In this document: positions 9,350-47,066 of the stretch, in pieces | Layout: each line of letters begins with the position of its first letter | How positions within the stretch are numbered: the first letter of the stretch is position 1 | DNA from: Elusimicrobiota bacterium | Lineage (GTDB): Bacteria; Elusimicrobiota; Elusimicrobia; F11 | DNA: 64,000 bases | Direction of reading: 5' to 3' | NCBI GenBank assembly: GCA_003140895.1 | Contig: PLLH01000012.1 | Span: 3,661 to 67,660, forward strand | Notes under the pieces: model-generated | Seen by the model: only the letters and a program-made list of their open reading frames with translations | Told to the model about the DNA's origin: nothing | Database searches by the model: none | Position numbers and translations under genes: made by a program

Positions 9350-9847
9350 TTAATGTTGACCTTCTTCAGGCTGAGGAAATTTGCCCAAAATGCTGCGCCC
9401 AAACGGGTGTTGCGGATTAAGCCGCAGGAGGGATTCGGCCGCTTGACGCGCCTTTTGTTTTTCACCCAGAGAATGCCAGGACATCGCCAACAGTTCCCAC
9501 GCTTGCGCGTCTTGCGGATTTGACCGAACCAACACCTTGCAACGATTGATGACCCGCGTGTAATGCCGGACTTTAAAATCCCGCCGGGCTTGTTCCAGCA
9601 GGGAGGCCGCCATACTGGGTTTGATCTGCTGGATGTTAATGACTTGTTCAAGACCCGAGAAGAACGAAACGGCGCCCAACACCAATAAAAGAACCGCCAC
9701 GCGCTTCCCGGAAAACAAAACAAATTGATCGGAAAAAATGCGTTCGCGCATCCAGGCGTTGAATTTAAAAACAAGGCCGGATCGAAACACCACCACCCAC
9801 GCCAACAGCAGGGCGAAAAGTCCCAACAAGATTTTTAAAAAATGCAT
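9350..9847 (-). CDS. membrane-anchored TPR-repeat protein
   Basis: 165 aa. N-terminal TM helix, then TPR-like helical repeats. Sits at the head of the aro gene string. Confidence 0.5.
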   Translation of the reverse strand: MHFLKILLGLFALLLAWVVVFRSGLVFKFNAWMRERIFSDQFVLFSGKRVAVLLLVLGAVSFFSGLEQVINIQQIKPSMAASLLEQARRDFKVRHYTRVINRCKVLVRSNPQDAQAWELLAMSWHSLGEKQKARQAAESLLRLNPQHPFGRSILGKFPQPEEGQH

Positions 9848-10006: not shown

Positions 10007-11095
10007 ATGGAAAACTCAGGAAAACATATGGATTCGCCGGCTTTTTTAAGGTATGTAACCCGTGTGAAGAGATCCTCCCTTCTTTTTCCCTTGATCTTGT
10101 TCTTCGGCATGGCGACGTCCGGTCTTGGGTTCGCCCAGGCCTCGCCGGTTTCAGCTCTCGTGATTTCTGCCGACACTGTTCCGTTTTCCGATTTTGTTCG
10201 GTCCATCGAGGCGGAAGGAGGAAAAATCCAGAAACGGATTCCCCCGCGGATTCTCATCGCCTCTTGGTCCGACGGCACTCCGCCGGCCGTGAGCGCCATC
10301 ATCCGATCTATCACCACCACATCGGTCCCCATAAATGAATTAAAACAATTTGGACCGGCGGCGGTGGCCGCGGGGCTTGAGTGGAACCGGAACACTCTGA
10401 CCACCCAGCGCAAAGGGTTGGGCCTCATGAGCGCCCAAGCGGTTGAAAGAGTGAGTCCGGCCCCGGCGGGCCTTCGAACTGAGGTGAGAGGCGCCGTCCT
10501 TCACTGCGAATGGCAACCCGGCGAGGGAGCCCTTTTCTACGAGGTTCGGCTCGCCAACAATCCGTCCTCCGTCTGGGCGAAAACGGCGACGGAGCGAACC
10601 CAAGCCGACCTGCCGCTTCCGAGCTCCACCGGCCCTCAAACCCTGACTCTTTCTGTCCGGGCATCGGACTCAATCCGAACTCCGGAAACGCAAACCGAAC
10701 CCTTGAACAGCGCTTGGAGCGACATCGCCGTTTCGATTCCCCCTCTTTCCTTCGACACAAGCGATCAACCGGCGGTTTTGACCTCTCCCGCCGATGACGT
10801 CGAATCGGAAGGGCTTCTTGTGATTTTGGAATGGGCCAACGCTCAAAATACACCGGTTCGACTCCAAGTCGCGCTGTCGGAGTCGTTTGAATCTCCGTTG
10901 ATCGATGAAGTGGTCACTGGAGGAGAATTCACGTGTCCCGCTTCCGTCTTGACCGTGGGACAACGATACGTGTGGCGCGCCAAGCGATGGGAGTCGGGGA
11001 GCGTTGGACCCTGGTCGGGACTGAGACATTTCCGAACCGGTTCTCCCGGCAGCATCGCGAACGATATGAAAATGAACCCCGAGGCCCCCCGATGA
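10007..11095 (+). CDS. secreted hypothetical protein (signal peptide, beta-rich/Fn3-like)
   Basis: 362 aa. Hydrophobic signal region LLFPLILFFGMATSGLGFAQA, rich in Ser/Thr/Pro. Stop overlaps the ATG of the downstream protease (ATGA). Confidence 0.5.
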   Translation: MENSGKHMDSPAFLRYVTRVKRSSLLFPLILFFGMATSGLGFAQASPVSALVISADTVPFSDFVRSIEAEGGKIQKRIPPRILIASWSDGTPPAVSAIIRSITTTSVPINELKQFGPAAVAAGLEWNRNTLTTQRKGLGLMSAQAVERVSPAPAGLRTEVRGAVLHCEWQPGEGALFYEVRLANNPSSVWAKTATERTQADLPLPSSTGPQTLTLSVRASDSIRTPETQTEPLNSAWSDIAVSIPPLSFDTSDQPAVLTSPADDVESEGLLVILEWANAQNTPVRLQVALSESFESPLIDEVVTGGEFTCPASVLTVGQRYVWRAKRWESGSVGPWSGLRHFRTGSPGSIANDMKMNPEAPR

Positions 11096-12564
11096 GGCGG
11101 GCGCTCGTGTTCCCGCTTCTACTCCTGGCCGCTGCCCCGCTGCGAGCCTCGCTCTTTTCCGTCGGACTGGACACCAACGCGTTTACCAGCGATTACATGA
11201 TCGGCAACGTCGTTGTCGCCATCGTTTTCCCTGAATCAGACGGTTCTCTGGATCAAAAATCAGAGACGTGGTCGGAAGAACGGAAGTCCAAGGCCATCGG
11301 TGAAATCATGGCCGGACATGACTGGTGGACGAAGCAAAACAAAAAAAGCGCTCTGAGTTTTACGTATGTCACGGAAACCGTCAGCACCAAATACGAACCC
11401 ATCACGCGTCCGTACTATCAAGAAACGCTCTGGATTCCGGATGTCATGGGGAAATTGGGCTATTCTGGGAGCCGTTTTACCTCCACGAAAAATTACATCA
11501 ACCATTTGCGCCAGCAGTACAACGCCGATTGGGGATTCGTCATTTTTGTCATCGACAGCCAGAACGATCCCAATGGAAAATTCTCGGACGGCTATTTCGC
11601 CTACTCTTATCTGGGCGGACCATTCATGGTGATGACCTACACCAACGGCGGCTATGGAATTTCGAATATGGACGTGGTCGCCGCCCATGAAATGGGCCAT
11701 ATTTTCAACGCGCTGGACGAATACGCCGGCGCCAGCTCTCCCTATGACTATTCGGCCGGTTATTTCTCCGTGATCAATGGAAATCATGCCTGGTCGAGCA
11801 TCGCCAACGATCCCAACTCCGTCATGCGGGGCGGAATCCGGTGGGGCCTGGACAAATGGGCGAGAGAAATGATCGGCTGGCGCGATTCCGACGGAAACGG
11901 ACTCGACGATATTCTTGACACAACCCCGATCGTGCAAGTCAACCAACAAATCGTCTCGCTGGCTCAAGGGCGCTCCCGCCTCTCCGGCATCGCGCGCGTG
12001 AGCGTTCTCCCCCGTCAAAACAACGCCGACGGCAACGGCATCACATTGAACACCATCGCCAAAGTCCAATTCCGGATCGCCAACGGAGAATGGGCGGAGG
12101 CCACCCCCTCCGACGGAAAGTTCGATTCGCCGGAAGAGAATTTCATGATCGAAGTGGCTTCCAACGTCATGAGCGCCCAATCCTTCAGCGCCGCCAGCGT
12201 GGAAGTGCGAGCCATCACCGATTACACGCTCGCCTCGGGTGCCAACTCCGGCGGAACGCGCCCCACGGCCGTGACCATCTCGACACTGGAGAACGCGCAC
12301 GCGTTTCCGAATCCGTTCAAACCCAATTCGGGAGTGGGCCATTCAAATATTACTTTCACCAATTTAACCTCCGGGGCCAAAGTTCAGATTTTTTCTCCCG
12401 ACGGAACCGGTCTCTTTGAATCAGAACCCACCTCCAGCAGCTCCTCTCTCACGTGGGACGGCCTCGACAAGGACGGATCGACGGTCGCCAGCGGCGTTTA
12501 TTACTATCTCATCACCGATCCATCGGGACAAAAGAAAAAAGGAAAAATCGCCATCATTCGGTAA
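11092..12564 (+). CDS. secreted zinc metalloprotease (HExxH, possibly M6/InhA-like) with C-terminal T9SS type-A-like sorting domain (Por_Secre_tail / FlgD-Ig-like)
   Basis: Starts MRRALVFPLLLLAAAPLRA (signal peptide). Active-site VVAAHEMGHIFNALDEY. Last ~90 aa FPNPFKPN...KVQIFSPDGTG...LTWDGLDKDGSTVASGVYYYLI...KGKIAIIR match the T9SS CTD consensus (PNPF, WDG, SGVYYY, basic K-x-x-I-I-R end). Confidence 0.6.
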   Translation: MRRALVFPLLLLAAAPLRASLFSVGLDTNAFTSDYMIGNVVVAIVFPESDGSLDQKSETWSEERKSKAIGEIMAGHDWWTKQNKKSALSFTYVTETVSTKYEPITRPYYQETLWIPDVMGKLGYSGSRFTSTKNYINHLRQQYNADWGFVIFVIDSQNDPNGKFSDGYFAYSYLGGPFMVMTYTNGGYGISNMDVVAAHEMGHIFNALDEYAGASSPYDYSAGYFSVINGNHAWSSIANDPNSVMRGGIRWGLDKWAREMIGWRDSDGNGLDDILDTTPIVQVNQQIVSLAQGRSRLSGIARVSVLPRQNNADGNGITLNTIAKVQFRIANGEWAEATPSDGKFDSPEENFMIEVASNVMSAQSFSAASVEVRAITDYTLASGANSGGTRPTAVTISTLENAHAFPNPFKPNSGVGHSNITFTNLTSGAKVQIFSPDGTGLFESEPTSSSSSLTWDGLDKDGSTVASGVYYYLITDPSGQKKKGKIAIIR

Positions 12565-12586
12565 CCGCCAAAAACGCCATTTTGAC

Positions 12587-12608
12587 CTGATTTATCAATG
12601 TAAATCAG
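12587..12608 (+). terminator. perfect 8-bp inverted repeat CTGATTTA-tcaatg-TAAATCAG followed by a T-rich tract. Candidate weak intrinsic terminator or operator.
   Basis: Read directly in the sequence 23 nt after the protease stop. The stem is AT-rich with only 2 GC pairs, so terminator strength is doubtful. Confidence 0.25.
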
Positions 12609-12699
12609 TTATTTTGGCCGACATCCTCCCTCTCAAAGAATCTTAGTCCTTTCTTATATTTGTCACACATTTGTCACGGCTCGCACGTAGGCTTGGAAT

Positions 12700-13629
12700 A
12701 TGAAAACACCGACGAGCGGATGGACAAGAAAAGCGTGTTTGGCAGCGATGCTGCTGATGTCTTACGTCACGCTCTCCAACGCCTCCGCCACCTCCTCCGC
12801 GCAATTTCTGAAGATGGGAGCGGGCGCTCGCGCCGCCGGCATGGCGGATGCCTTCTCCGCCGTGGCGGATGATGTGACCGCCGGCTACTGGAATCCGGCG
12901 GGACTTCAGCAAATTTCGAGCCCTGAGATGTCCGTCATGCAAAACAATTCTCTGGTCGAGACACAATACCAGTACGCGGGAGCCGCGCTTCCCATGGGGC
13001 GCAGCGCCATTGGCCTGTCCCTCTTCAGCATGAACTATGGCTCCATCGACCGCTACAGCGCTTCCGACGCGAAAGACGGTTCTTTCTCGGCGGGCTCCAT
13101 GGCGGGAAGCCTCACGTTGAGCAGCCAACTCCGAGAGGGACTCAATTTCGGCATTTCCACGAAATACATCCAGGAAAAAATCGAAAATGAAAGCGCCACG
13201 GGATTCGCCGCTGACATCGGTTTGTTGATGAAAACCGGCGCCGCCCGATGGTCCGCCACAGTTCAACATCTGGGCCCGCAGATGAAATTCATTCAAGAAA
13301 AAAGTTCTCTCCCGCTGACGTTTCGGCTTGGATCCTCCGCCACCGTGATGAACAAATCCCTCACCGTCGCGCTTGATGCGATCAAACCGAACGACTCAGC
13401 TCTCTCCATCGCGGGCGGAGTCGAGTACAAACCGGTTTCAATGATCACCTTCCGTGGCGGATATAAATTGCAGACCAGTAACTCTGTCAAAGCAGATAAT
13501 TCAACCGGTTTAACGGCCGGCCTTGGGGTCAACGTGGGGGCATTTATTCTTGATTATGCGTTTGTCCCCTTTGGTGATCTTGGCAACACTCATCGATTTT
13601 CCCTCCTCGTCAAATTCCACCAAAAGTAA
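12700..13629 (+). CDS. FadL-like outer-membrane beta-barrel of the PorV/PorQ/UPF0164 type (paralog 1)
   Basis: 309 aa. Signal peptide, then the family-typical N-terminal motif GAGARAAGMADAFSAVADDVTAGYWNPAGL. Alternating amphipathic beta-strands. C-terminal aromatic residue. Confidence 0.55.
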   Translation: MKTPTSGWTRKACLAAMLLMSYVTLSNASATSSAQFLKMGAGARAAGMADAFSAVADDVTAGYWNPAGLQQISSPEMSVMQNNSLVETQYQYAGAALPMGRSAIGLSLFSMNYGSIDRYSASDAKDGSFSAGSMAGSLTLSSQLREGLNFGISTKYIQEKIENESATGFAADIGLLMKTGAARWSATVQHLGPQMKFIQEKSSLPLTFRLGSSATVMNKSLTVALDAIKPNDSALSIAGGVEYKPVSMITFRGGYKLQTSNSVKADNSTGLTAGLGVNVGAFILDYAFVPFGDLGNTHRFSLLVKFHQK

Positions 13630-13757
13630 ATCTAAAGCTACAGTTAACAGCTTAATTAATCCAATCTTATAATTCGCCTCTATAAATCAATCAATTATAC
13701 CCATGAATTATTTGTGACAGCCTTGAATTTCTGCACATCCCCTGCCAAACTTAAAAT

Positions 13758-15323
13758 ATGAAGTTAACTGTTGAGTTCAAATTTCTAAGCCTTCTGACCA
13801 GCGCATTCCTGGCGCTATCAACTTCTATGGCTTCATTCGAACCCCTTCCCGTTGGCGGCCGAGCGGCCGGAATGGGCGAGGCCTACTCAGCGGTGGCCGA
13901 TGATGTCTTTTCTCTTTACTACAACCCCGCCGGCGTTCTGCAAATGAGCCGGCCGGAGTTTGGAACGTACTATTCCAGACTGTTTGTGGGGCTCACCGAC
14001 AACTCACAGATCAGCCGCACCTTTGTCGGTTATGCTCAACCGCTTGGAAGAGCCGGCCGGCTGGGAGGCATTGGAGCCAGTTACTTGGCGCTGGATCTAC
14101 CGGGGCTTTACAAAGAAGAAGCCATTGGGTTGACGTATGGAAGAGAGTTCGCCCATCTCTGGAACATCGGCGGCTCCCTGAAACTCCTTCGGAAAGCCAT
14201 CGGCTCCGACGAATACACAACGAACGCCATCAACCCCAATACCGGCATGGCCACGGGATCGGCGGATCCACTTCTCGCCGCCGGACGGTCTCAATCGGCG
14301 ATGGGCCTCGACTTGGGAGTTCAATATCGCTTTACGAGAGCGTACGCGCTGGGCGTTGCCGTCCGCAACATCAACGCCCCCAATATGGCGCTGGGAGACG
14401 GCACGGACAAAGCCCCCGCCGTGTGGACCGCTTCCATGGCGCGTAAACTTCGCGCCGGTTCCCTGGACCTGGAAATCATGAATTGGAAATCGACGGAAAA
14501 CAACATGCGCTTCTCTCTCGGCGGAGAAACCTGGTTTAAAAATGGCTTCGGCTTAAGAGCCGGCGGAAGCCTGGGGTCCCGGAATTACTCGACGGCGTCG
14601 TTCGGCGGCTCCTTCAAGTCGGAATCCTTCCAGTTTGATTACGCCATGATTTATCCCCTCCAGGGCGTTCAAGGGACGATCGGCATGCAGCAAGTCTCTG
14701 TGACGATTCGCTTGGGCAAACCCCCGGTCGACCCCCTGGAGAAACAACTCATTCAAGAAAAAGAAGAACGGATCCGTGCCGAGACCGAAGCCCGCTACGC
14801 CAAAGCGGAAAGCGACCGCTTGAAGAAACAGCTTTTCGCGCTCACGCAAGAAAAAACAACCGCTCAAAAAGATCGCGAGGAACGCGCCGCCCAGCAAACG
14901 CTTGAGGAAGCCCAAACCCAGCGAACGCGCCGCTCACGAACCACGAACGAAACGCAGACCGCCGCCGAAACCCGAAACCGTCTCTTCGCGGACTACACGA
15001 CGGCTCTGGCCGAATACAACACCAACGTTCGGCAAGGCGTCGGTCTTAAAGAGAAAAGGAAAATGCTCGAGAAGATTTTGGCCAAATTTAAAGACACCGG
15101 CGTGGACACCGCCACCCTCTCACGCGAGATGAAGAGCATCGACGCCGAAGAAACGCGCTCCGTGAAAGATTTCGAGCTCTCCATGAGCTTCTACCAGAAA
15201 CTGGTCCAACAAGGGGCGAGCGTCGAAGACCGAAGCAACATGCTGAAACGAATCATTCAGAAATACAAATGGACCGGCATTGACATCAATTCGGCTGAAA
15301 AAGAGATGAACAACTTAAAGTAA
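13758..15323 (+). CDS. FadL/PorV-like outer-membrane beta-barrel (paralog 2) with ~170-aa C-terminal coiled-coil extension
   Basis: 521 aa. Same N-terminal motif VGGRAAGMGEAYSAVADDVFSLYYNPAGV. C-terminal third is charged and coiled-coil-like (EKEERIRAETEARYAKAESDRLKKQL...). Confidence 0.55.
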   Translation: MKLTVEFKFLSLLTSAFLALSTSMASFEPLPVGGRAAGMGEAYSAVADDVFSLYYNPAGVLQMSRPEFGTYYSRLFVGLTDNSQISRTFVGYAQPLGRAGRLGGIGASYLALDLPGLYKEEAIGLTYGREFAHLWNIGGSLKLLRKAIGSDEYTTNAINPNTGMATGSADPLLAAGRSQSAMGLDLGVQYRFTRAYALGVAVRNINAPNMALGDGTDKAPAVWTASMARKLRAGSLDLEIMNWKSTENNMRFSLGGETWFKNGFGLRAGGSLGSRNYSTASFGGSFKSESFQFDYAMIYPLQGVQGTIGMQQVSVTIRLGKPPVDPLEKQLIQEKEERIRAETEARYAKAESDRLKKQLFALTQEKTTAQKDREERAAQQTLEEAQTQRTRRSRTTNETQTAAETRNRLFADYTTALAEYNTNVRQGVGLKEKRKMLEKILAKFKDTGVDTATLSREMKSIDAEETRSVKDFELSMSFYQKLVQQGASVEDRSNMLKRIIQKYKWTGIDINSAEKEMNNLK

Positions 15324-15338
15324 CCAAATTTAACTAGA

Positions 15339-15815
15339 ATGGCGATTCAATTGAGGCTCGTAATGAAGCAAAGTCAAAACGCATCCATCGGAATCCGGCG
15401 GGGACCCGCCCGACTAAGGAAAATCGCTTCCTGGCTTGTTTTTTCCGGCGTGATTTTTCTTGTGGCGGGGCTCTTGAACGCGGCCCTTCGCCTCCCCCTC
15501 TGGGCCGCTCCTCAATCCTTCGGAGAGATCAACCTCACTGAAGTGGCTCCGCGAATTATCACGCCCAACGGCGACCTCCAAAACGACGTCGCTTACTTTC
15601 GATTTGACGGGAGCCTGGCCGGACTTCCCATCGACACGTCCGTTCTCGATGTGAACGGCGCTAAGATTGCCAGCCTCAAACTCGACAGCTCGGAGACCAA
15701 CCTGCTTTGGGACGGAAAAGATGAAAGCGGGCGGGCCCTCCCCTCGGGCATCTACATCTACCAAATCTCCATTGGGAACCACCGCGCCACCGGCACTCTC
15801 GCCATCGCTCGATAG
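15339..15815 (+). CDS. small membrane-anchored protein with FlgD-Ig/T9SS-CTD-like C-terminal domain
   Basis: 158 aa. N-terminal TM helix. C-terminal ITPNGDLQNDVAYFRF...LLWDGKDESGRALPSGIYIYQI...TGTLAIAR matches the (T/S)PNGDG.ND ... WDG ... SG.Y.Y pattern of FlgD Ig-like sorting domains. Confidence 0.45.
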   Translation: MAIQLRLVMKQSQNASIGIRRGPARLRKIASWLVFSGVIFLVAGLLNAALRLPLWAAPQSFGEINLTEVAPRIITPNGDLQNDVAYFRFDGSLAGLPIDTSVLDVNGAKIASLKLDSSETNLLWDGKDESGRALPSGIYIYQISIGNHRATGTLAIAR

Positions 15816-15847
15816 AATTCTTCCCCCTTTACACTTTCTCCCCGCAT

Positions 15848-17482
15848 ATGGCACCATACACGCGTCCGATGAAGAAATTCCGTTCCGCGCCCTTTGTCTT
15901 GGGCTTTATCTCCCTCACCGTTCTCTTTTCCCGGTTGCCGCGCCTCGCCTGGAGCGCTGAGCCGCCGGCCCCCCGGATCTCTCGCATCACCATCGACGGA
16001 TCCAGCATTTTCGATCTCAACAGGCAAATCACTCTTCGACATTTCCCCTACACGTGGATCAACGTCCTTCATATTCAAACCAAGGAACAGATTATCCGCC
16101 AGGAACTCCTGTTAAAAGAAGGGGACCCCGTGGACGAGTTTCTTATTCATGAAACAGAACGGAACCTGCGCGCGCTGTCTTTCATCCGGTCCGCCCAAAT
16201 CGAACAACTCCCGCAAACCGATGGAACGGTGGCGTTGATGGTCCATGTGGGCGACTCCTGGACCACCGAACCTCAAATCAATACGTCAGGGATCAATAAA
16301 ATCGACACGGTGGAGGTAGGCTTTAAAGAGAAAAATTTCCTCGGATATGGGAAATCGGTGGGCGTTTTCTATCAGAAGGGCGTCGACTCAATCCAACGGG
16401 AATACCGCTATTTTGATCCCCGTTTTTTAGGAAGTCGATGGCAACTCACGGGGAACTACATCTCGCGCACCGGAGGGCTGGAAAAATTCGCCGAAATCAA
16501 CCGGCCCTTCTTCTCCGCCGATACCCGGTTCTCCGCCCGCACCTCTTACAACCAAATTGTCCAGCCCGTGGACGTGTTCCAAAACAACGTCAAAGTCTCG
16601 CAATTTGAACAAACCAAAGACATCAACGAAAGCTACATCGGAACGAAGGTGGGCGGAGGGCGCTCGTGGGTGGCTCATGAAGGAATCCGCTACAAATATG
16701 AAAGCCAGCATTTCGCGGCCACGGACAAAACAAACGGCGCTATTCCGATCCCCGAAAAATTTAAAACTCTTTTCTCCGATCTGGATATCAGCCGAACCCG
16801 GTTTATCGTTCTCACGCGCGTTGAAAAGATGACGCGCGTTGAAGACATCAACCTGGGCCCGCAATTTTCTCTCTCCCCAGGTTACTCTCCGAAACAATTC
16901 ACGGGCACCCGCGACAGCAGCGAATTCGAATCCACGTATGGCCAAAGTTTTCTCATCAATCAAATGCATCTGGCAACGACCCGATTTGAGATGAAAGGCC
17001 GGAATATTTTCACCCAACCCGAAAATGAACGCTATCTGGCCTCGGCGCAATACTACGACCGGCGTTACCATTTTCAAACCATGACGGCCAAAACCCGGCT
17101 GGAATGGGGGCAGCACTTGGACTCCGACAACCAAATCACGCTCGGGGGCAACAACGGCCTTCGCGCCTTCGCCGTGAATGACTTCAGCGGGAACAAAAGT
17201 TTTCTCTTTAACGCGGAAGATCGTATTTTTATCGTCGATGAAGCCTTTGAGCTGTTCGCGATCGGCGCGGCGGTCTTTTATGACGCCGGCTCGGTGTGGT
17301 CGGAAGGACAAACCATGTGCCTCTCGGACATCCACAGCGATGTGGGAGCAGGGCTGCGACTGGGACTCACGCGTTCCTCCTCTGAAGTCATCGTCCGGCT
17401 GGATTTCTCTTATCGCCTCCAACGATCGCCGGCCAACAGTGACAAATTTATCATCACCTTCGGGACCAGCCAGGCGTTTTAA
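15848..17482 (+). CDS. Omp85-family outer-membrane protein (BamA/TamA/TpsB-like; POTRA plus 16-strand barrel)
   Basis: 544 aa. Signal peptide. POTRA-like ISRITIDGSSIFD...LLLKEGDPVDEF. C-terminal beta-barrel region ending in aromatic-rich strands (...IITFGTSQAF). Confidence 0.65.
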   Translation: MAPYTRPMKKFRSAPFVLGFISLTVLFSRLPRLAWSAEPPAPRISRITIDGSSIFDLNRQITLRHFPYTWINVLHIQTKEQIIRQELLLKEGDPVDEFLIHETERNLRALSFIRSAQIEQLPQTDGTVALMVHVGDSWTTEPQINTSGINKIDTVEVGFKEKNFLGYGKSVGVFYQKGVDSIQREYRYFDPRFLGSRWQLTGNYISRTGGLEKFAEINRPFFSADTRFSARTSYNQIVQPVDVFQNNVKVSQFEQTKDINESYIGTKVGGGRSWVAHEGIRYKYESQHFAATDKTNGAIPIPEKFKTLFSDLDISRTRFIVLTRVEKMTRVEDINLGPQFSLSPGYSPKQFTGTRDSSEFESTYGQSFLINQMHLATTRFEMKGRNIFTQPENERYLASAQYYDRRYHFQTMTAKTRLEWGQHLDSDNQITLGGNNGLRAFAVNDFSGNKSFLFNAEDRIFIVDEAFELFAIGAAVFYDAGSVWSEGQTMCLSDIHSDVGAGLRLGLTRSSSEVIVRLDFSYRLQRSPANSDKFIITFGTSQAF

Positions 17483-17486
17483 TTGC

Positions 17487-20400
17487 TTAGGCCTGAATCA
17501 ATATTTTCCTGAAGGTTTCAAACATCCCCAATTGAGACGGCGCCAGCCGAATCGCCTGAAGCGTGTTAAGAATGACGAGGACGTCAAAACTGCGCTGCAG
17601 CGCTTCCCGGGTTGAACGGCCCAGCCCAAGCCCATCGAGATTAAAGAAATTTTCCGCCAGCGGGGCCTCATTTCGGAGACGGAAGCGGTTCACGCGCCCA
17701 GACACCTCTTTGGCCAGCGCTTCATCAGTCATGTCGGGTCCGTTCACCGCTCTCAGCAAACTCCACACTGAGGAATGCGCCTTCCCATTCTCAATAAAAA
17801 TATGTTGTTCCCGGATCGATGTTCCCAGCGTTTTTTCGATTTCACGCGTCAAGACCTCCACGTCCATTTGAGGATCAACAACCAAAATCAAACGGCCCAG
17901 ATGATTCCCCCGGCTTTCTCGCTGCCGTTGCGAGATGGATTGAAGGGCTTGCTCAGCCGCCGCTTTCAGCGTGACGGGAAGCCACTCGTAACTATCCAAA
18001 GGCTGCCCTGTTTCCGTCGTATAACCAAGGCTCTCAACGGAAACGAGGAAGCGGCTGACATCGTTCTTAGAAAGAATCATCGCCAAAATGCCCGCCAGAA
18101 ACGGCGCCACGCGAGCCACGTCGCCCCGCGTCATGGTTCCCTCGCCCACTTTTTTCCTTATCTCATCCCGTAACGCCTTCGCCAATTCCGACCCCGACAC
18201 CAAGGGATCCCCAGTTCCCCCCGCCATTTTTTCTCCAACGTTCAACGAGCGGATGGTTTCCTGATCCATGAACACCGCCAACACCTGATTCAACATCTGA
18301 GCTTTATTGCCATTGTTTTCCTGAACGATTCCGATGAGTTTCGAGGCCAAGGATGAACCGGGCGTCAGTTGGGGCGCGCTATTGTTAACGACGAGATGGA
18401 AAGCGGTGGAGACGAGAATGGGAATGGAAAAGAGGGAGAAAGTGGGAAACGCCATGATGAGCGGGATCGTGACGGCCGCGATCAAAATGGAAAGACCGGC
18501 GTTCACGGGAAGCGGAGGACCCCGCTCCGCGCGAGCCTCTTTATCAAGAGCCCACATGGACAAAACGATCACCCATTCCAGAATATGAATGGCCGCGAAG
18601 ACACCCCACACCCACCACGTCGCCGCTGTCAAATCCATCCCCTGCCCATTGAGAAGCGCCATCGCCCCAAAGGCCAGGCCATTTTCAAGCACAGGCGCGA
18701 CCCACCGGTCATACGCTCCCGACGAGAGCCGGCCGCTGAACATCGGAAGAACAATCGCTTTAAGCCCGATCAGGAGGCCGCCCCTTGAAACCGATTTCAA
18801 TTTTCCCAGAGTAAACCAGTCCTCCGCGTAAGGAAGCCAATTCTCGTTTCGGTGCAACACGGATCTCACGTCCCGGAGTTCGTGAATCGCCGTAGACAAA
18901 GACATCTCGCCCGCTATCATTTTTCTCATGGCCATATGAATTCGCAAATTATTCTTCAAATGATCCGGGAATGTATTGTTCAGGATGCAAGCGAGAGAAA
19001 AAATATCGGATTCGATCGTGGCGATTCCTCCGTCAAAACGATTTTTCGGCGTGTACCCGTCTGAGTGAATCGAGTCTCCAATTTCGTATGTGTGAACGAC
19101 GGGCACAACCGACATGACATCCAGAATCCGGACCCGAATTTTTCCGTCAGACCCTTTTTGAATTTTGATGTTACCTGGTTTCAAATCGCCGTGAAGGAAC
19201 CCGGCTTCGTGCCATTTCTGCATCGTCTCCAAAATGGCGATGGCCTCATCCAACGTCAACGGCTCTTCTTGCGCCCTGTTCCATAAATCTTTTTCCTCGA
19301 TCCACTCCATCAATAAGAAAGAACGGGGGAATTTTTTCCCGACCCCCATTCCGAGAAATTCCGGAGCGGAAACAACCCCTTTGTCGCTAAGATCCTTCAA
19401 TTTTCTCCCTTCGATCCGATTGAAAGCGATGGCATAAACCAACTCCGACAAAAATCGGGGCTCCCCATTGGACATGAGTTGACTGACCGCCCCCACCTTC
19501 ACGGCGATGGCCGGGCCATTGGGACCTCCCACTTCATACGCCTTATAGACCCGTCCAAACCCGCCTCCGTAGGGGCGTCCTTTGATTTCATACGTCTTAT
19601 TTTTTACGGTGACCTTGGTCCCTTGTGGGAGAGCCATGAGCGCTTTATCTATTTCTGTTTGATTCTTTTCCAAGATATACCAGAAGTTTTTTATGGCAGA
19701 CACGTCGTCCAGTTTCTTTTGAAACGGCATATTTCTCTGAGACCAAATAAATTTTTCGTCATAACGCGGGGATACCGTTTTCATCTCCGCATGAATGTCC
19801 CTCACCTCTTGATCCGACAATTGCGCCAATAAAAGATCCCACAATTCCCGCATTTCGCTTGGTTTGGTTTCCGGGACGGGTCCAACCGGGAGAGGAGGAG
19901 GCGATGTCCGAGTAGGCTTGGCCACCGCATCTCTGCCCAACAATTTGTCAAGCGAAGGTCCATAGGTCAGAATGCTGGCAAATGGCCTCCATCGCGGCGA
20001 AACGCCTTTCAACACGCCAGCGTTGTAAAGGACGTGGATTCCCGCTGAACACCAGAAGGCGTAATCGGAAATAAAAACCGGCATGAGAGAAGTGAAAGAA
20101 AGGGAGAAGACGGCGCCGAGGAAAGAACGAACAGTGAAATCCAAGACATCTTGCCGAAGATGAATCTGATTAAAAGCTTCGCGCCATCCACGCTCTTTAG
20201 CCCGCACAATCCACGCCACAATGGTGTGGGCAAATGAAAACGTAACGGTGGCCCAACCAAAACCAACCCCCAGTGCCAACGCAGGACTTAAACCAAATCC
20301 CGTCAAAACTGTTGGAATTGAGGATACCCCCCACTGATGGAAAACTTTGGCCTCCCATAAGGAAGAGACGACAACAATCAAATTCCAATAGAGAAAGGGA

Positions 20401-23400
20401 TGTGACATTTTGAGCCTCTGAATCAACGGCAACTCTGCCAAGACAGCCATCGGCTTCGGCTTATTTTGAGATATGAACTTCTCCAGTTCCCGAATGACCT
20501 GCGCGACATCTTCTGACTGAAGCGCGGGTTCCCCCCGTTCTGCTCTATCCTTTTGCTTTCGCAATGCGGGTGAACCGGCTTTTTTTCCACGCATCTCGTC
20601 ATATCGGATTTGCTCCTTGAGATAGTTCAAATTCTCCTCCAAAAGAGTCAAACCATCGGTAGAACTTCCAGAAAACGTTTTCAAAAAAGCTTTAAAAATA
20701 AACTCGTTATTCTCCTCCGTCTCTCCATAATTTCCATAAAAAGAGATCATCCGCAGAAGACATTTATCCAAACTGACTCTTCTATCCCCCAAATCGACCA
20801 TAACAGCCATCTCAGGAGGGGCAATAAGCGCCCAGGGGAGAAACTTAGCCAAAGGACCGACGGGCGCAGTGAGTTGGGAGCCAAGGCGACTCATCCCAAA
20901 AAAACGGGATTTACTCCTACCGGTTGTCCGAGTGATAATGAAATTTTTCTCGTGGATATCTTTTGGCATCTCGCCCAAGATCCTTGAAATTTCAAGAAGG
21001 CTCTCAACAGCCAACTGCCGATGCCGGGGCAGCAATTCCCTCTTTTCCTTGAGCTCTCTTAATGTCGGGCCGTCAATAAACTCTTCTAAATAAAATTCAA
21101 GATCCCCCCCTTCGTCGACTATTGAAAAATATTTTCCAAAACGCGGAACAAAATCTGTCTCTTCGGACAACAACTCAAGATCTGTCAACTCTATTTTCCT
21201 AATGTCACCGGGAGTTTTGGGCTTCTTGACGGCAACCATGACTTTAAATGGAGATGATTTTTTTAACTCAAAATCCACTCTAAAAACCAACTTATGTGTT
21301 CCCTCCTGATGAAATTTAAGACTAACTTTGCCGGTAAAATCTTCAAGCGCAATGTTATTTCGGGTTAGGTGATTTAAAAAATCCACCACAACTGCTGACT
21401 TATTCTTGAATATAAGATGGGAAATGGCGTGCGATAGACGCACGCTCAAAATGGCGATGTCTAATTCTTTAGGGTCAGTTGTAATGTCATGTGAATAATT
21501 AACTTCCAGTCGATGAAAAATGGATGCCAGCGGCCAATTCTTAAGTAATTGATTGAGCCGCTCCGTTCCCTTTTGAAGAACTCCGAAGTTGTATCCCCGG
21601 TGACTGAACCAAGCCCAGCCAAGGGCAAGGAAAAGGATTGCCGAGGAGACAAGGAGGAAGAGAGAAAAAGACGAAATCAGCGGAAGAGCGAAGAAGACGG
21701 CAAACAAGGGTGTGTGAAAAACGGTACCGGCAACGAAAAGCTTGGTGAGTCGCCACGGGGTTGGCGGAGCCTGGACAGGCGGCGCCTGAGCGTCCGGCGA
21801 TTGTCTCTGTATGTGAAGCGAGGTGAACACCAAGTTGCTCATCACACCTGCGAACACCGCCGCCGATTTATGATCGAACGTGGCTCCAAAGAAACCCAGA
21901 GCCCCTGCGTAGAACGCGGCGAAGAAGACAGCCACCAGCGCCGTCTCAAACAGCGGCGCGACCCGCGTCGAGATTTCATCATCAAGAATGGCTTCCGCGC
22001 CAAAAAGATTCCGAAGCGGATTCAGCAGGAACCGGGTGAATAACCGCGTGAGGCCCCAGGTGGCGGTAGGTGAAGAATTCCTAAATTTGGCGGGAAGACG
22101 GAAATCGGCAGGAGGCGCCCGGTCTTGAGCTGCTTGTTTTACCGCATTCAAAATCCCAAGCCCCGCGCCACCATCTCGAAACCGCTCCAGCACCGCATTC
22201 AAAACTGTTAACTGATCTTTAAGGAACTCTCGATCATGCGTCCACTCCATTTCGGGTTCGCCCCGTTGGATATGGGTTCGCTCATGAGTGGTGGCTTCGA
22301 TAAGTGTATAGAGAAGCCGCTGAAAATTTTCCCTCTCGGAGTTTGAAAAGGAGCGACCGCCCTTAATGAGAAGTTTGTGCAGGGTTTGGAGATCCTCATA
22401 GATGGCGCCCACATCCCAAGCGATATTAAACTGCCCTACCTGCGTATAGGCAATGGCGCCCCTTTTGGCTGACGAAAAGAACTCATGTCGGCATGCTTTT
22501 GCCACTGGCATAACAGCGTCAATCGGAGCCAACACCGCCTCAACCAATCTCTGCCAGGCCAAAAGAATGGACGCCTCGGGATCATTCGGGGAAACGGGAG
22601 AGGCGTTCACTTCCTCTCGGATATTCGCGGCAAAACCGCGGGCCTTGATGAGCAACTGCCCCATTTCTGCTTCGGCTTGAGCGCGCTTAATTTGTTCTTT
22701 CAGCCAATCGGGAAGTTGTTCCAAAATCTCCTTATTCTTGAGGCCCAAAATAATGGCATCAAAACATGAAATTTTCGTTCCTTGAATGGGAATCATAGGA
22801 AGAGACATTAAAAGCAGAATGGAATTTATTTCGGCATTGAGGCCGCGCGCATAAATCGACACATCATTGACTGGTTTCCCTTCCGCCACCCGCTTTGCAT
22901 CCTCGGCAATTCGGGTACCCTCTTTCGGCTTATACGTCGCGGCATTAATAATATAGTCATACGGCAACCGATCCTTAAGATCCAAACGTCCCAGTCCCAA
23001 AAGACGCCCTACGGCGGCCATCCCCGCCAAAGCCAAGGCCGGCTTCAATTCCTCTATCTTTTTTGCGCGCCCCACAAAATCTGTCCGTCCTTCGATGGGT
23101 TCAACATCCGCTTCCAGATTTAGAACAAACCCAAATTCCGAAAGGAGTTCTAAAAACAATCGAGGAATGGGATAGGTGAATTCACCGTTTAACTGGCACA
23201 TGTAAAATTGATTTAAATTAAATGCCTGTTCGCCCACGGCGGCATAAATCTGGATCGCTTCGCCGGTGGAACTTCGCTTTACTTCAGCCAAGGGTTCCAC
23301 CTTATCATTGACCAAAATGTTATTCCATACGACCCTCATCTTTTTCTTATCAAAGAGCCCCACATAGGAGCCTAAACGAACAAAAATTTCAGAAGCAAGA

Positions 23401-26400
23401 AGTCCCGGGTTGTCTGAGGTCTTGCGCCATTCCACCGTCGTGCCGGATTTTTGATTTGTCTGGTTTTGAACGACACGCATACGGACATCGACAAGACGGT
23501 CTCCCTGTCGGACCGGCGTCAAATAAACCACCGTGGTCACGCCGTTTTTGGTGGACCTGACCCTGACATCATCTCCAGAGCGGAATAACGTGTAGAACCC
23601 CTGGCCGAAATGAAGCCAATCCGACGACCACCCGCTGGCGCTTGGCTGGAGCAGTTTGCCGATGATCTCTTGAAGGTCCATTCCAATTCCTTCATCGGAC
23701 ATGGACACCGCCAGTTCTCCGCTATCTTCGACCCAGCTGTTCACCTGGAAAACCGGAACGCTCCCGTCCTTTGAACGCCTGCTTCGGCTCGCTTCATAGG
23801 CGTTGGTGACCACTTCTCTCAAGAAAGCGTATTCGTCGGTCGTCTGTTCATAGGCGCGGCGGATACTCACGCGCGCGCGTTCCTTTAATTCTTGGGGGGC
23901 GCGCCTTGATTTTTCAGACAGGGTTGGAAGATCGCCGGCATTCGTCACCGATTTGAATTGGGATTCGCTCTCTCTATTTTGACCCATCGCCAAAATCAAA
24001 TCAGAAACTTCGACTTCAACACTCTGCTGATCTGCGGCGCCAATGGCGGAGGGCGGTTTCGAGCCGAGAGGAGGGGAATCGCTGTAGGATTGATGAAGAT
24101 GAGCCGCCAATCGGGCGCTCAGCATTCCCCTGGTTTTAAGAATCTCTTGTAGATCCTTTAACTGAAAACGGTATAGATTAGAAATAATATCAGCTTGACC
24201 CCTTCGATTATCGGAGTTCAAAAAAGAAAACTCTTGTAAGAGATCCTTTGCTTCATTCTCGCTCAAACCCGACACCAAAGACTCAAAAAGCATATTGGCT
24301 TTTTTTACTAGACTCCAAATGCCCTTGTTATCGTTAGGACCAACAGGTTCCTTTTGATACAGGGAAAAAAGCAAACTCTTGTATACTTCAACCCAACCCA
24401 TGTTAGTCAGATATTCTGGAAGATGTCGAAACCGGGTTTTGAAATAATCTGTTTTCGATCGTTCATCAGGAGGCATAAAATAGTCCAGCAGGCTTTTAAT
24501 GAAGAATCCTCTTTCAGAAAATACAGTAAAGACTGCATCATGCATTCCCACCCCCCCATACCGGTGCCCAAGCCAATACATTTCAAAGACCAGAGGATTG
24601 TCAATTTTGTACCAATCTGCTTTCCCCTCAAGGTTTTTTTGGTACCTATCCATCAATTCACGATAGACCAAGTAGAGAACAACATCTTGAATAATGACGT
24701 TGCTGTAGCTCAGCAGGGATCCTTCTTCAATGAGGAGATTAAATTCATAAAAATTTTTATTTTCAATATGATATTTGCGTATCAACTCCTTCGCTTCAGC
24801 GGAGATAACCGGCATGATCGGTTTTCCACCGCTCGTAAACAGCGAGCGAAATCGGTCAGGGAAGGACTCCCAAAAACTCCGAGGAAGAAGATTTACAAGC
24901 TCATCGGGTGGATACAAAACATTCGATAATCTATCCCAAAGTATAAATTCCTCTCTCGTCCTTGCATCTTTAGTCCCTTGTGAAAAAAATCTGTGAAAAT
25001 TAAAAGAAGAATCATTCCCCTTGAGGCCGGCCGTCTCAAATCCTTCGGTCTCATGTGCGGATTGAAGAAGTAAAGGTTTTTCTGTCTGAATGAGAGGATC
25101 GATATCGTCCCCTTCCTGCGCGGCCCGGGCCACATCCGCCACCGCTTGAAGAGCCGCCAGCGCTTCATCTTGGGTCTCCGAATTTTGAATCGCTCCTCTA
25201 AGGGATGGATCGACCAGAAGGATTCCGCCTTTGGCCAACCTCGCCCCCATAGGTCCCTTGGATTGACTCAAACGAACATAGACAATCTGGCGGAATTGAC
25301 TGTCTCGCATCGAGTCCGGGATTATCTGTTGACCGCGAGGCAAAAGTTCTTTTCTGATGAAAAAGAGGTTGGCCTGGTTCGGCACCAACGACTCTCTTAA
25401 ACTCACGTCGTCCTCCAATACCAGCCAACTATTCTTAACCGATGATCGCTGGAGGAATCCCTCTACGTGAGACCTTAGGTTCTCCATTGGATCTGAAGAC
25501 ATTACTCTCGTTTTCCCCGGAGGCGTATCTTTTTGGAGAGATTCAACAACGGGATAAAGGAGGTTCGCCATTCGGCAAAAAAGATCGGGTCGAGAATCGA
25601 ATCTCTCAGCGAGGGTGTCGATAAGGCGTTCCAACGCTTTTAAAACCGCTTGAGTCGATTTGATTTTGTCTCTGTCGCGGGCATAGTCAAAAAGATCCTT
25701 GTGAAAATCCAACACGGCCTCACCGAACTCACCAAAGGTTTCAAACCGAACAGTGGTGAAATAGACCCCGTTGATCAGGATATGGACTCCCGTTTCTTGG
25801 CCCCGGCGGGTCGTGGCCGTCTGAGGAGGAACTCTCATGCTGACGGCGCCGTCGACATCCGCAATTCTCTTAACACCCTCCTGAGAATTCAATATCCACG
25901 GTTTTCCATCCATCACCTCAATGACGGCATCTGACTTATGACGTAAAACTTTCTTGGCTTCCGTTAAGACGGAGTCTCTTTGAATTTGAGATGAAATGAT
26001 TTCAACTTCAGAACCATGACCAAGACGCGCCGCCTCTCCGGGAGAAAGTTTTAAGCAACTCATCATCAACTGACCGTTGTCTCCAAGAGAAAATTCAAAA
26101 CGATTGGCTTCCATGCCGGACACCGTCCAGATGACGACTTTGTCATCAGGTCCGGTCAAATAAGAAAAAATAGACAAAAATCCAGTGCCAAACCGGCCCG
26201 TGGTTCCTGACTGCTTAAAATTTCCACCCTCTCCGGGGTTCAAGAGCTTGGTCAAATCAGCGAGGGAAATACCCTCTCCCCAATCACGGACAACGGCCCG
26301 GCCATCTTGAATGGTGAATTGCACCTTTTTTTCCGAGTTAAATTTACTTCTGAAATTAAGACGCTCCTCCGTATCAATCGCGTTAAGAAGAATTTCAATA

Positions 26401-41684: not shown

Positions 41685-41691
41685 AAAAATC

Positions 41692-46907: not shown

Positions 46908-46967
46908 GTGCTGAAATCTATCAAAGTCGGAGCCGGTTTTAAAAGTCTTGTGAAGATATTTCTAATT

Positions 46968-47045
46968 CCCCTCCATGTCTCACAATGGAGAGCTTGCCCG
47001 CCACGGCGAGCGAGCCCGCCGTGGCGGGGGCTAGGGGAGGTTTCC
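46968..47045. repeat. GC-rich hairpin repeat element copy 1 (CCCCTCCAyG..ACArTGGAG + 12-bp GC hairpin insert + GGGGCTAGGGGAGGTTTCC)
   Basis: Read directly. A second copy lies at 48091-48132, on the other side of rsgA. Confidence 0.4.
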
Positions 47046-47066
47046 TTATGTTGATATAATCGGGGC

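What the first reader, a model, noticed from the sequence alone, without database searches (positions are those of the whole stretch)
10007..17482. Plus-strand surface/secretion locus: signal-peptide protein, HExxH protease and small protein with T9SS-type C-terminal sorting domains, two tandem PorV-like barrels and an Omp85
Six co-directional genes encode only exported proteins. The metalloprotease ends in a textbook T9SS type-A CTD (PNPF...WDG...SGVYYY...KIAIIR). The small 158-aa protein ends in a (T)PNGD.QND...WDG...SGIYIY Ig-like tail. Two paralogous FadL-like barrels carry the G.G.RAAGMG.A.SAVADD....YWNPAGL motif of the PorV/PorQ/UPF0164 group. The second has a long coiled-coil tail, unusual for this family. 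An Omp85 protein closes the cluster. Together this looks like a cargo-plus-shuttle module for a type IX-like secretion or attachment pathway outside the classical Bacteroidetes context. The core translocon (SprA, PorKLMN) is not in this window.
Basis: partly seen in the sequence, partly recalled or inferred. Interest (0 to 1): 0.6.

Follow-up and report, generated by a model that had tools for sequence, protein, structure and literature searches.

The report
Elusimicrobial surface-anchor operon with PorV-like barrels
A conserved six-gene operon in an uncultured Elusimicrobiota bacterium encodes two proteins carrying type-IX-secretion-style sorting domains, each apparently matched to its own PorV-like outer-membrane barrel, plus an Omp85 protein. 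This shows that the outer-membrane "tag and carrier" part of type IX secretion occurs outside the phylum it is said to be confined to.

Summary
Window 10007-17482 carries six co-directional genes for signal-peptide proteins: g1 (FN3-like, no family), g2 (HExxH zinc protease with a C-terminal sorting domain, CTD), g3 and g4 (14-strand PorV/FadL-type barrels), g5 (a CTD and nothing else) and g6 (single-POTRA Omp85).

HMM thresholds are met for g3 (PorV/PorQ family), the g2 CTD (TIGR04183) and g6 (Omp85). They are not met for g4 or g5. The g4 model nevertheless has PorV as its best structural match.

The organism is an Elusimicrobiota MAG; its closest named relative is Ca. Obscuribacterium magneticum. 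The operon is syntenic in six genomes.

"CTD protein next to its own PorV-family barrel" is a strongly enriched gene pair in non-FCB phyla, and the pairing is type-specific. PorZ-like CTDs sit next to g3-type barrels; CHU_C-like CTDs sit next to g4-type barrels.

I read the locus as two cognate anchor pairs, resembling PorZ-PorQ and type-B-CTD/PorP, that display a protease on the cell surface. The periplasmic tail on g4 and a dedicated Omp85 would serve tethering and assembly.

No T9SS core gene lies in the window. Whether one exists elsewhere in the genome could not be tested, so the route across the outer membrane is unresolved. Verdict: new variant of a known kind, moderate interest.

The parts
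9350..9847 (-). 165-aa TPR protein with an N-terminal hydrophobic segment, transcribed divergently from the operon. Possible accessory component; membership is uncertain.
   Evidence: Present at the same position in all six syntenic genomes. Weak sub-threshold similarity to BamD/YfiO (E 1.2e-3, 18 bits vs cutoff 81).
10028..11095 (+). g1: 355-aa (362 from the ATG at 10007) signal-peptide protein with an N-terminal domain, two FN3-like domains and an invariant C-terminal ...NPEAPR/K. Its stop overlaps the g2 start by 4 nt.
   Evidence: No Pfam or NCBIfam hit. Weak FN3 hits in PDB. Orthologue alignment A9 shows 31-42% identity with a conserved C-terminus. The overlap is shown.
11092..12564 (+). 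g2: 490-aa secreted zinc metalloprotease (HEMGH at aa 199-203), followed by an Ig-like beta-sandwich, a disordered linker and a PorZ-like type-A CTD (aa ~405-490).
   Evidence: TIGR04183 25.9 bits (cutoff 23) and PorZ C-terminus E 1.4e-13. PDB 5M11 E 2e-7, or 2.5e-9 with a profile. AF2 pLDDT 85.8. Foldseek finds zincin folds: OgpA, PAPP-A, ADAM17, fragilysin. The catalytic domain belongs to a large family without a Pfam model: 802 cluster representatives at E<=1e-30.
12700..13629 (+). g3: 309-aa PorV/PorQ-family outer-membrane barrel. Closest equivalog-level model is PorQ.
   Evidence: NF033709 179.9 bits (cutoff 90). PorQ 108, PorV2 77.5, PorV 67.6, all below their equivalog cutoffs. PDB PorV 6H3I_F E 2.8e-4.
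13758..15323 (+). g4: 521-aa PorV/PorP-like 14-strand barrel (aa ~27-318) fused to a conserved ~200-aa helical tail (aa 326-520). The tail is inferred to be periplasmic and contains an internal ~46-aa repeat.
   Evidence: PorV_fam 61 bits (<90) and PorP/SprF 35 bits (<90.55). AF2 pLDDT 85.7 with 14 strands and 6 helices. Foldseek best match PorV 6H3I_F, E 1e-12. Internal repeat. About 70 homologues share the architecture; variants carry TPR or OmpA C-termini instead.
15363..15815 (+). g5: 150-aa (158 from 15339) signal-peptide protein whose mature ~100 aa are a single CHU_C/type-B-like CTD (FlgD_ig fold). It has no passenger domain.
   Evidence: CHU_C 24.6, FlgD_ig 24, TIGR04131 23.8, all below cutoff. 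6 of 7 family members hit TIGR04131. The same domain forms the C-terminus of 587-983-aa proteins encoded immediately upstream of g4-like barrels in L091-L094.
15848..17482 (+). g6: 544-aa Omp85-family barrel with one POTRA domain. It is not a canonical five-POTRA BamA.
   Evidence: PF01103 37.3 bits (cutoff 24) and weak POTRA. BamA model TIGR03303 matched only over POTRA5 plus the barrel start, 66 bits vs cutoff 297. It follows g5 at -14 to +157 nt in six genomes.

Best explanation
The locus is an operon for an outer-membrane surface-display assembly built from two cognate 'sorting-domain plus barrel' pairs.

Proposed steps:
1. All six products are exported by Sec. This is inferred from signal-like N-termini.
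2. g3 and g4 fold as 14-strand PorV/FadL-type barrels in the outer membrane. This is shown at HMM and model level.
3. The zinc protease g2 is held at the cell surface by non-covalent binding of its PorZ-like, probably uncleaved, CTD to the PorQ-like barrel g3. This is the way PorZ is held by PorQ and PorU by PorV. It is inferred from homology and from recurrent gene pairing.
4. The CTD-only protein g5 binds the PorP/PorV-like barrel g4, as type-B CTD proteins bind PorP/SprF-like carriers. It is inferred from type-specific pairing in four other loci.
5. The helical tail of g4 reaches into the periplasm as a tether or oligomerisation arm. This role is filled by TPR or OmpA-like domains in sister proteins, and by the separate protein PorE for PorP. 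It is inferred.
6. The single-POTRA Omp85 g6 assembles the barrels or barrel-CTD complexes. The evidence for this step is weak: conserved adjacency only.
7. g1, translationally coupled to g2, is a partner of the protease, for example a chaperone, an inhibitor or an adhesion module. This is a guess.

How the CTD proteins cross the outer membrane is not established. It could be through an unlinked T9SS-like translocon, or during barrel assembly with help from g6.
For: Family and fold assignments:
- g3 passes PorV_fam, and its best equivalog-level hit is PorQ.
- The g2 CTD passes TIGR04183. Its best matches are PorZ, by NCBIfam E 1.4e-13 and PDB 5M11.
- The g4 model is a 14-strand barrel whose best PDB match is PorV. 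47 of 66 sequences in the g4-centred alignment A4 also hit PorP/SprF.
- 6 of 7 g5 family members hit the type-B CTD model.

Operon conservation:
- Gene order is identical in six genomes at 41-56% g3 identity.
- Spacing is tight: -4, 135, 128, 39 and 32 nt.
- At least 23 g3-like/g4-like protein pairs list the same longest-contig length.

Pairing rule:
- Among 23 non-FCB loci where a co-directional ORF directly precedes the PorV-family gene, that ORF has a C-terminal CTD in 14. Only 5 of 248 other ORFs do (Fisher p 9e-14).
- In the remaining loci the figures are 30/47 versus 39/456 (p 1e-17).

Type specificity:
- All four distant g4-like barrels examined (L091-L094) are directly preceded by a protein with a g5-type CTD. 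The ctdB HMM gives 1e-22 to 4e-32; ctdA gives 1.5e-5 to 2.5e-10.
- g3-like barrels in Firestonebacteria, Aerophobetes, Nitrospira and several Elusimicrobia follow PorZ-like CTDs.

Periplasmic extensions:
- Sister barrels carry TPR repeats or an OmpA-like domain in place of the tail.

Literature precedents:
- PorU-PorV and PorZ-PorQ anchoring, and type-B CTDs bound to cognate carriers (PMC12365241).
- PorP-PG1035-PorE and SprF-SprB complexes (PMC9143113).
Against: - No protein-protein interaction was tested, and multimer modelling was not available.
- g4 and g5 fail every curated HMM cutoff. The g5 domain belongs to the broad FlgD_ig fold, which also occurs in Gram-positive surface proteins (C5a peptidase), so it is not diagnostic of T9SS.
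- In this operon g5 lies downstream of g4. In the other loci the CTD protein is upstream.
- The six syntenic genomes also share their flanking genes, so part of the conservation is general synteny.
- The Omp85 link is seen only in this clade. My g6 HMM found no Omp85 next to PorV-like genes elsewhere.
- Signal peptides were judged by a crude script.
- My ORF calls and the three-sequence CTD HMMs are rough.
Confidence: 0.55

Rival explanations
1. Cargo plus dedicated carriers for a complete T9SS-like machine encoded elsewhere in the genome (SprA/Sov translocon, PorKLMN-type motor and ring). This is essentially the first reader's model. The barrels would collect the CTD proteins at the translocon.
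For: All the homologous parts (type-A and type-B-like CTDs, PorV/PorQ/PorP-like barrels) work this way in Bacteroidota (PMC12365241, PMC9143113). Only 64 kb of a genome of roughly 3 Mb was seen; the size estimate comes from the 2.9 Mb, 76%-complete relative DUR003.
Against: No core gene lies in the window. Published surveys place T9SS only in Bacteroidota or the FCB group (PMC4793230: none in the other clades among 1,528 diderm genomes; PMC12365241). The genome paper on the closest named relative reports only GldAFG and no T9SS. Full-text searches link Elusimicrobia to T9SS in no paper. All of this is absence of evidence, not a direct test.
Confidence: 0.22
2. A self-contained surface-display system that does not use a T9SS translocon. 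The CTD protein would be exported together with, or through, its own barrel during assembly by the dedicated Omp85 g6, as in type V or two-partner secretion logic.
For: An Omp85 is conserved in the operon. Minimal two-gene CTD-barrel modules stand alone amid unrelated genes in several phyla. [quoted passage not shown]
Against: The stand-alone pairs elsewhere have no adjacent Omp85. No precedent exists for transport of a folded passenger by a FadL-type 14-strand barrel. Absence of a T9SS core from the genome is unproven.
Confidence: 0.2
3. An ordinary nutrient-acquisition locus. The barrels would be FadL-like channels for hydrophobic or peptide substrates and the protease would feed them. The Ig-like C-terminal domains would be generic surface or adhesion domains with no sorting or anchoring role.
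For: FadL and TodX are the next-best structural matches after PorV. Weak Toluene_X hits. The FlgD_ig fold is widespread.
Against: This does not explain why a C-terminal CTD sits specifically on the gene next to the barrel (p 9e-14). It does not explain type-specific pairing, or a protein that is only a CTD (g5). g3 scores far better on PorV/PorQ models (180 bits) than on FadL (15 bits).
Confidence: 0.08

Closest known systems
T9SS attachment complex PorU-PorV-PorQ-PorZ of Porphyromonas gingivalis (PMC12365241; PorZ structure 5M11)
   Same: It has two PorV/PorQ-family 14-strand barrels, each holding one CTD-bearing surface protein by its retained CTD, and one partner is a peptidase. The best matches of the g2 CTD are to PorZ, and the best equivalog-level match of g3 is to PorQ.
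   Different: The peptidase here is an HExxH zincin, not a C25 cysteine sortase. The second partner is a 100-aa CTD-only protein, not the PorZ beta-propeller. One barrel has a 200-aa helical tail. An Omp85 and an FN3 protein are co-encoded. The host is Elusimicrobiota. All equivalog cutoffs fail. No Sov/PorKLMN was seen.
Type-B CTD proteins with cognate PorP/SprF-like carriers (SprB-SprF, PG1035-PorP-PorE; PMC9143113)
   Same: A CHU_C/TIGR04131-like CTD is encoded next to its own barrel. Pairing is one-to-one and type-specific. A periplasmic tether is associated with the barrel: PorE (TPR plus OmpA_C-like) as a separate protein there, a fused tail, TPR or OmpA domain here.
   Different: g4 is nearer PorV_fam (61 bits) than PorP/SprF (35 bits), and both are below cutoff. 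g5 has no passenger. Dependence on a T9SS translocon is unknown.
PorA (PGN_0123), a small CTD protein of P. gingivalis (PMC7712824)
   Same: A small CTD-bearing protein that is a component rather than an enzyme cargo. [quoted passage not shown]
   Different: PorA has a FimH-like lectin domain and acts in PorXY-SigP signalling. g5 has no extra domain. No homology beyond the CTD fold was tested.
FadL/TodX hydrophobic-substrate channels; UPF0164 of spirochaetes
   Same: Same 14-strand barrel with an N-terminal plug and the NPA-like motif.
   Different: The sequence models favour PorV/PorQ. The genomic partner is a CTD protein, not a catabolic operon.
Omp85 superfamily (BamA, TamA, TpsB)
   Same: g6 has the Omp85 barrel plus a POTRA5-like domain.
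   Different: It has one POTRA instead of five (BamA), three (TamA) or two (TpsB). It is far below the BamA cutoff (66 vs 297 bits). Its substrate is unknown.

Membership tests
Type IX secretion system (whole system) | SprA/Sov outer-membrane translocon | tested here: not met
   No SprA family hit in any large ORF of the 64-kb window, including the 2917-aa and 3823-aa ORFs. The rest of the genome could not be searched.
Type IX secretion system (whole system) | PorK/L/M/N (GldK/L/M/N) motor and ring | not testable with these tools
   Absent from the window. No whole-genome access. The genome paper on the closest named relative lists only GldAFG.
Type IX secretion system (whole system) | PorU C25-type sortase | tested here: not met
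   NF033707 matches only the CTD portion of g2 and g5 (17-18 bits vs cutoff 420). There is no C25 domain in the window.
PorV/PorQ family (NCBIfam NF033709) | Score at or above 90 bits over the full-length barrel | tested here: met
   g3 scores 179.9 bits over aa 31-306 against model positions 1-326.
PorV/PorQ family (NCBIfam NF033709) | The same threshold applied to g4 | tested here: not met
   g4 scores 61 bits (E 1.4e-16), below 90. The fold is nevertheless PorV-like: 14 strands, Foldseek best match 6H3I_F at E 1e-12.
PorQ (NF033711), PorV (NF033710) and PorV2 (NF052325) equivalogs | Equivalog cutoffs of 220, 250 and 325 bits | tested here: not met
   g3 scores 108.3, 67.6 and 77.5. g4 scores 17, 22.8 and 34.4.
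PorP/SprF family (TIGR03519; Pfam PF11751) | Score at or above 90.55 bits | tested here: not met
   g4 scores 35.4 bits. 47 of 66 sequences in alignment A4 hit at E<=1e-3. PF11751 is precomputed on several homologues.
T9SS type-A CTD (TIGR04183) | Score at or above 23 bits at the C-terminus, with PNP..., G.Y and K...K motifs | tested here: met
   g2 scores 25.9 bits over aa 405-487. The motifs are visible in the sequence. g5 scores 17.2 bits and does not pass. Pfam PF18962 gave no hit for g2 and 14.1 bits (<27) for g5.
T9SS type-B CTD (TIGR04131) and Pfam CHU_C (PF13585) | Score at or above 35 bits or 27 bits respectively | tested here: not met
   g5 scores 23.8 and 24.6. g2 scores 15.5 and 24.8. 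6 of 7 g5 family members hit TIGR04131 below cutoff.
T9SS CTD function | The CTD directs transport or anchoring through a PorV/PorQ/PorP-type barrel | not testable with these tools
   Only genomic association was measured: enrichment p 9e-14 and type-specific pairing.
Omp85 superfamily (PF01103) | Score at or above 24 bits, with POTRA plus a 16-strand barrel | tested here: met
   g6 scores 37.3 bits over aa 163-544. POTRA is weak at 17.4 bits (<21.3). The BamA equivalog TIGR03303 gives 66 bits vs 297 and is not met.
Zinc metalloprotease (zincin) | HExxH motif in a zincin fold | tested here: met
   HEMGH at aa 199-203 is invariant in orthologues. The AF2 model matches OgpA, PAPP-A, ADAM17 and fragilysin. 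The M6 model TIGR03296 gives 24 bits vs 110.8 and is not met. No Pfam family reaches its cutoff.

The most novel reading that the evidence does not exclude
CTD-plus-PorV-type-barrel pairs, here bundled with a dedicated Omp85, form an autonomous outer-membrane display pathway. It works without SprA/PorKLMN in Elusimicrobiota and in other non-FCB phyla (Aerophobetes, Firestonebacteria, some Nitrospira-labelled MAGs). The Bacteroidota T9SS would then have been built on top of an older, simpler 'tag and carrier' module.
Probability: 0.2. Interest if true: 0.8.

Novelty: new variant of a known kind. Interest (0 to 1): 0.55.

Why it matters
T9SS is described as exclusive to Bacteroidota or the FCB group. 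Its outer-membrane end is understood only in that setting: the CTD signal, the PorV/PorQ/PorP carriers and the attachment complex.

This locus, and the gene-pair rule found around it, show that the signal-carrier unit is modular and type-specific, and is widespread in phyla not known to have the translocon or motor.

If those genomes truly lack SprA/PorKLMN, the pairs become a tractable minimal system. They could be used to ask how a CTD is recognised by a FadL-type barrel and how a folded protein reaches the surface. They would also bear on how T9SS evolved.

If the genomes do have a core, the known range of T9SS extends to Elusimicrobiota.

Either way, the result gives a function hypothesis for hundreds of 'hypothetical' barrel and CTD proteins in candidate phyla.

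Tried and rejected
1. A homologue search with the g2 CTD alone found one hit, because the word index is unsuited to a 104-aa divergent domain. One capped search was lost.
It was used as a survey of PorV-family contexts instead.
3. I expected the ~1050-1230-aa CTD proteins upstream of PorV-like genes in Ignavibacteria, Caldithrix and Marinimicrobia to be PorU.
   - They have no NCBIfam or Pfam hit.
   - They sit behind TonB-dependent-receptor-like genes.
   - The 'g2-g3 equals porU-porV by position' argument was therefore dropped.
4. The promoter/terminator scan gave counts no different from shuffles (4 vs 3.6; 16 vs 11.9). Only one strong promoter-like site was found, between g3 and g4.
5. PDB sequence and profile searches gave nothing useful for g6 or g1.
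7. No way was found to obtain T9SS core query sequences or whole-genome access, so the presence of a core could not be tested.
8. The giant 3823-aa kinase gene downstream was considered as part of the module and rejected. It is absent from this position in L003, L005, L088 and L090; L089 ends just past g6 and is uninformative.
9. Pure chance adjacency was rejected because of six-genome synteny and the Fisher tests.

Full report
**What is there**

Window 10007-17482 holds six co-directional + strand ORFs. An independent gene call on the same metagenome contig gives the same six (ENA ERZ27254256 k141_250476, 150 kb).

Spacing is tight. g1 and g2 overlap by 4 nt, and the following gaps are 135, 128, 39 and 32 nt. 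A simple hydropathy script finds a signal-like N-terminal segment and no other TM-like segment in all six. This is not a dedicated signal-peptide predictor.

A consensus promoter/terminator scan is no better than shuffled sequence. The exception is one 11/12 promoter-like site at 13644-13673, between g3 and g4.

**The proteins**

- **g1 (355 aa).** It has no family hit and only weak FN3 similarity. Orthologues are 31-42% identical but keep an invariant C-terminal ...NPEAPR/K.

- **g2 (490 aa).**
  - It carries HEMGHIFNALDEY, invariant in orthologues.
  - The AlphaFold model (pLDDT 85.8) shows an alpha/beta catalytic domain, a beta-sandwich, a disordered linker and a C-terminal beta-sandwich.
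  - Foldseek matches the catalytic part to zincins (OgpA, PAPP-A, ADAM17, fragilysin) and the C-terminus to PorZ.
  - The catalytic domain belongs to a large family with no Pfam model: 802 cluster representatives at E<=1e-30. It is embedded in many multi-Ig surface proteins.
  - The CTD passes TIGR04183 (25.9 bits vs 23). It matches the PorZ C-terminus much better: NF052228 E 1.4e-13, PDB 5M11 E 2e-7, or 2.5e-9 with a profile.

- **g3 (309 aa).** It passes the PorV/PorQ family model (179.9 bits vs 90). Its best equivalog-level score is to PorQ, though below that cutoff.

- **g4 (521 aa).**
  - It is below the PorV_fam cutoff (61 bits) and has a weak PorP/SprF hit (35 bits).
  - Its model (pLDDT 85.7) is a 14-strand barrel followed by six helices at aa 326-520.
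  - PorV (6H3I_F, 8GL6_F) is the best PDB match, ahead of FadL.
  - The tail contains an internal 46-aa repeat. g4 as a whole is more conserved than g3 (58-71% identity).

- **g5 (150 aa).** It is a signal peptide plus one CHU_C/type-B-CTD-like domain. It is sub-threshold on every model and lies within the broad FlgD_ig fold.

- **g6 (544 aa).** It passes Pfam Omp85 and aligns to POTRA5 plus the barrel start of BamA. It is far below the BamA cutoff.

**Whose genome**

The best named homologues of g3 and g4 come from Elusimicrobia/Elusimicrobiota MAGs. The 56%-identical orthologue lies in GCA_020523905.1. A second contig of that assembly is titled Ca. Obscuribacterium magneticum DUR003. That species is placed in Elusimicrobiota. 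Its genome is 2.9 Mb with 52.8% GC.

Flanking genes are housekeeping: the shikimate pathway, pepP, efp and accBC on one side; beta-lactamase, OmpA and MTHFR on the other.

**Conservation**

- The same six genes, in the same order, occur in L003, L005, L088, L089 and L090. g3 identity is 41-56%.
- At least 23 g3-like and g4-like proteins list the same longest-contig length.
- The flanks are also conserved, so part of this is general synteny.
- HMMs for the g4 tail, g6, the g2 catalytic domain and g1 hit nothing outside these clusters among 87 loci. The full operon is therefore specific to this clade.
- The 3823-aa kinase gene after g6 is absent in the relatives that extend past g6 (L003, L005, L088, L090; L089 ends there). 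It is not part of the module.

**The wider pattern**

A scan of GTDB species genomes with a PorV-like alignment returned 80 loci. They come from Elusimicrobia, Aerophobetes, Poribacteria, a Nitrospira-labelled MAG, Zixibacteria, Calditrichia, Ignavibacteria, Marinimicrobia, Bacteroidota and others.

Using my own ORF calls and small CTD HMMs, I looked at the co-directional gene immediately upstream of the barrel.

- In non-FCB loci it ends in a CTD in 14 of 23 cases, against 5 of 248 other ORFs (Fisher p 9e-14).
- In the remaining loci the figures are 30/47 against 39/456 (p 1e-17).

The upstream proteins are very diverse (365-3300 aa). Curated models confirm PorZ-like or TIGR04183 CTDs on several of them.

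**Type specificity**

Four distant g4-like barrels were examined. Three have the helical tail and one has TPR repeats. All are directly preceded by a protein with a g5-type CTD: the ctdB HMM gives 1e-22 to 4e-32, far better than ctdA. L092 additionally has a stand-alone 142-aa g5-like protein.

g3-like barrels in Firestonebacteria, Aerophobetes, Nitrospira and several Elusimicrobia instead follow PorZ-like CTDs.

Other PorV-family barrels carry TPR repeats or an OmpA-like domain in place of the g4 tail.

**Interpretation**

The parts and their pairing mirror the anchoring side of T9SS.

- PorU and PorZ are held on PorV and PorQ by their CTDs. Type-B CTD proteins bind cognate carriers (PMC12365241).
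- PorP binds PG1035 and the periplasmic TPR/OmpA protein PorE. SprF binds SprB (PMC9143113).

I therefore read g2-g3 as a PorZ/PorQ-type pair that displays a zinc protease. I read g5-g4 as a type-B/PorP-type pair with a built-in periplasmic tether. g6 would be a dedicated assembly factor, and g1 a partner of g2. Only the homologies, the fold models and the genomic associations are shown. Binding, topology and the role of g6 are inferred.

**What remains open**

No T9SS core family is present in the window. The literature restricts T9SS to Bacteroidota or the FCB group (PMC4793230, PMC12365241). The DUR003 paper reports only GldAFG. No paper in the library links Elusimicrobia to T9SS.

I could not search the rest of the genome, however. 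An unlinked translocon therefore remains as likely as an autonomous, possibly Omp85-assisted, route. PorA, a small CTD protein that reaches the surface without the T9SS machinery (PMC7712824), shows that the second option is not absurd.

**Verdict**

The locus is a new variant of a known kind. It is already labelled 'PorV/PorQ family' by automated annotation in some MAGs, but I found no published description of it. Interest is moderate. It would be high if the genomes prove to lack a T9SS core.

Noticed in passing
window 17487-28958 (-): Giant 3823-aa ORF with a Ser/Thr protein-kinase domain (aa ~3130-3330), two HATPase/sacsin-like ATP-binding regions and several hydrophobic stretches. It is inserted between g6 and the beta-lactamase gene only in this lineage; it is absent at this position in L003, L005, L088 and L090.
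   Followed up: partly
window 55219-63972 (-): 2917-aa ORF with no Pfam or NCBIfam hit at all.
   Followed up: partly
window 9350-9847 (-): 165-aa TPR protein transcribed divergently from the operon and conserved there in all six genomes. It has weak sub-threshold similarity to BamD (E 1.2e-3), which is intriguing next to an operon that ends in an Omp85.
   Followed up: partly
window 13644-13673 (+): The only strong sigma-70-like match (TTAACA-18-TATAAT, 11/12) lies in the g3-g4 intergenic gap. It could be an internal promoter for g4-g6. The overall scan is not above chance.
   Followed up: no
window 40356-43092 (-) versus L003/L005/L088-L090: In the relatives a pmbA/tldD-family gene sits between the TPR gene and aroE. 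In the window that slot is empty, and a tldD/pmbA pair lies about 30 kb away. This is a local rearrangement.
   Followed up: no
window 44636-53180: Apparent peptidoglycan/MurNAc recycling cluster: BadF-type sugar kinase, GH3 (NagZ-like), RsgA, SIS-domain MurQ-like protein, AnmK, sodium:solute symporter and NamZ exo-muramidase.
   Followed up: no
L049, L064, L084 (Ignavibacteriaceae, Neomarinimicrobiota, Caldithrix): In L049 and L064 a three-gene pattern is seen: a TonB-dependent-receptor-like protein (CarboxypepD_reg plus Plug), then a ~1050-1230-aa CTD protein with no Pfam or NCBIfam hit (not PorU), then a PorV-like barrel. In L084 and other FCB loci the same layout is inferred from gene sizes only. 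This looks like a distinct, undescribed module.
   Followed up: partly
L011:12899-15799 (Ca. Obscuribacterium magneticum): 966-aa protein fusing Peptidase_MA_2, PD40 (TolB-like) repeats and an Omp85 barrel. It lies two genes downstream of another pair formed by a 3300-aa CTD protein and a PorV-like barrel.
   Followed up: no
P0192-P0199, P0204: PorV-family barrels fused C-terminally to TPR repeats (~650-680 aa) or to an OmpA-like peptidoglycan-binding domain (497 aa). The periplasmic extension is modular.
   Followed up: partly
L088:10985-11488: An extra 167-aa signal-peptide ORF sits between g3 and g4 in one orthologous cluster. It is absent from the window and has no hit to my HMMs.
   Followed up: no
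L005:7376-8423: The g1 orthologue is split into two ORFs (177 and 150 aa) in the nanopore-derived 429-kb contig. This is probably an assembly frameshift.
   Followed up: no
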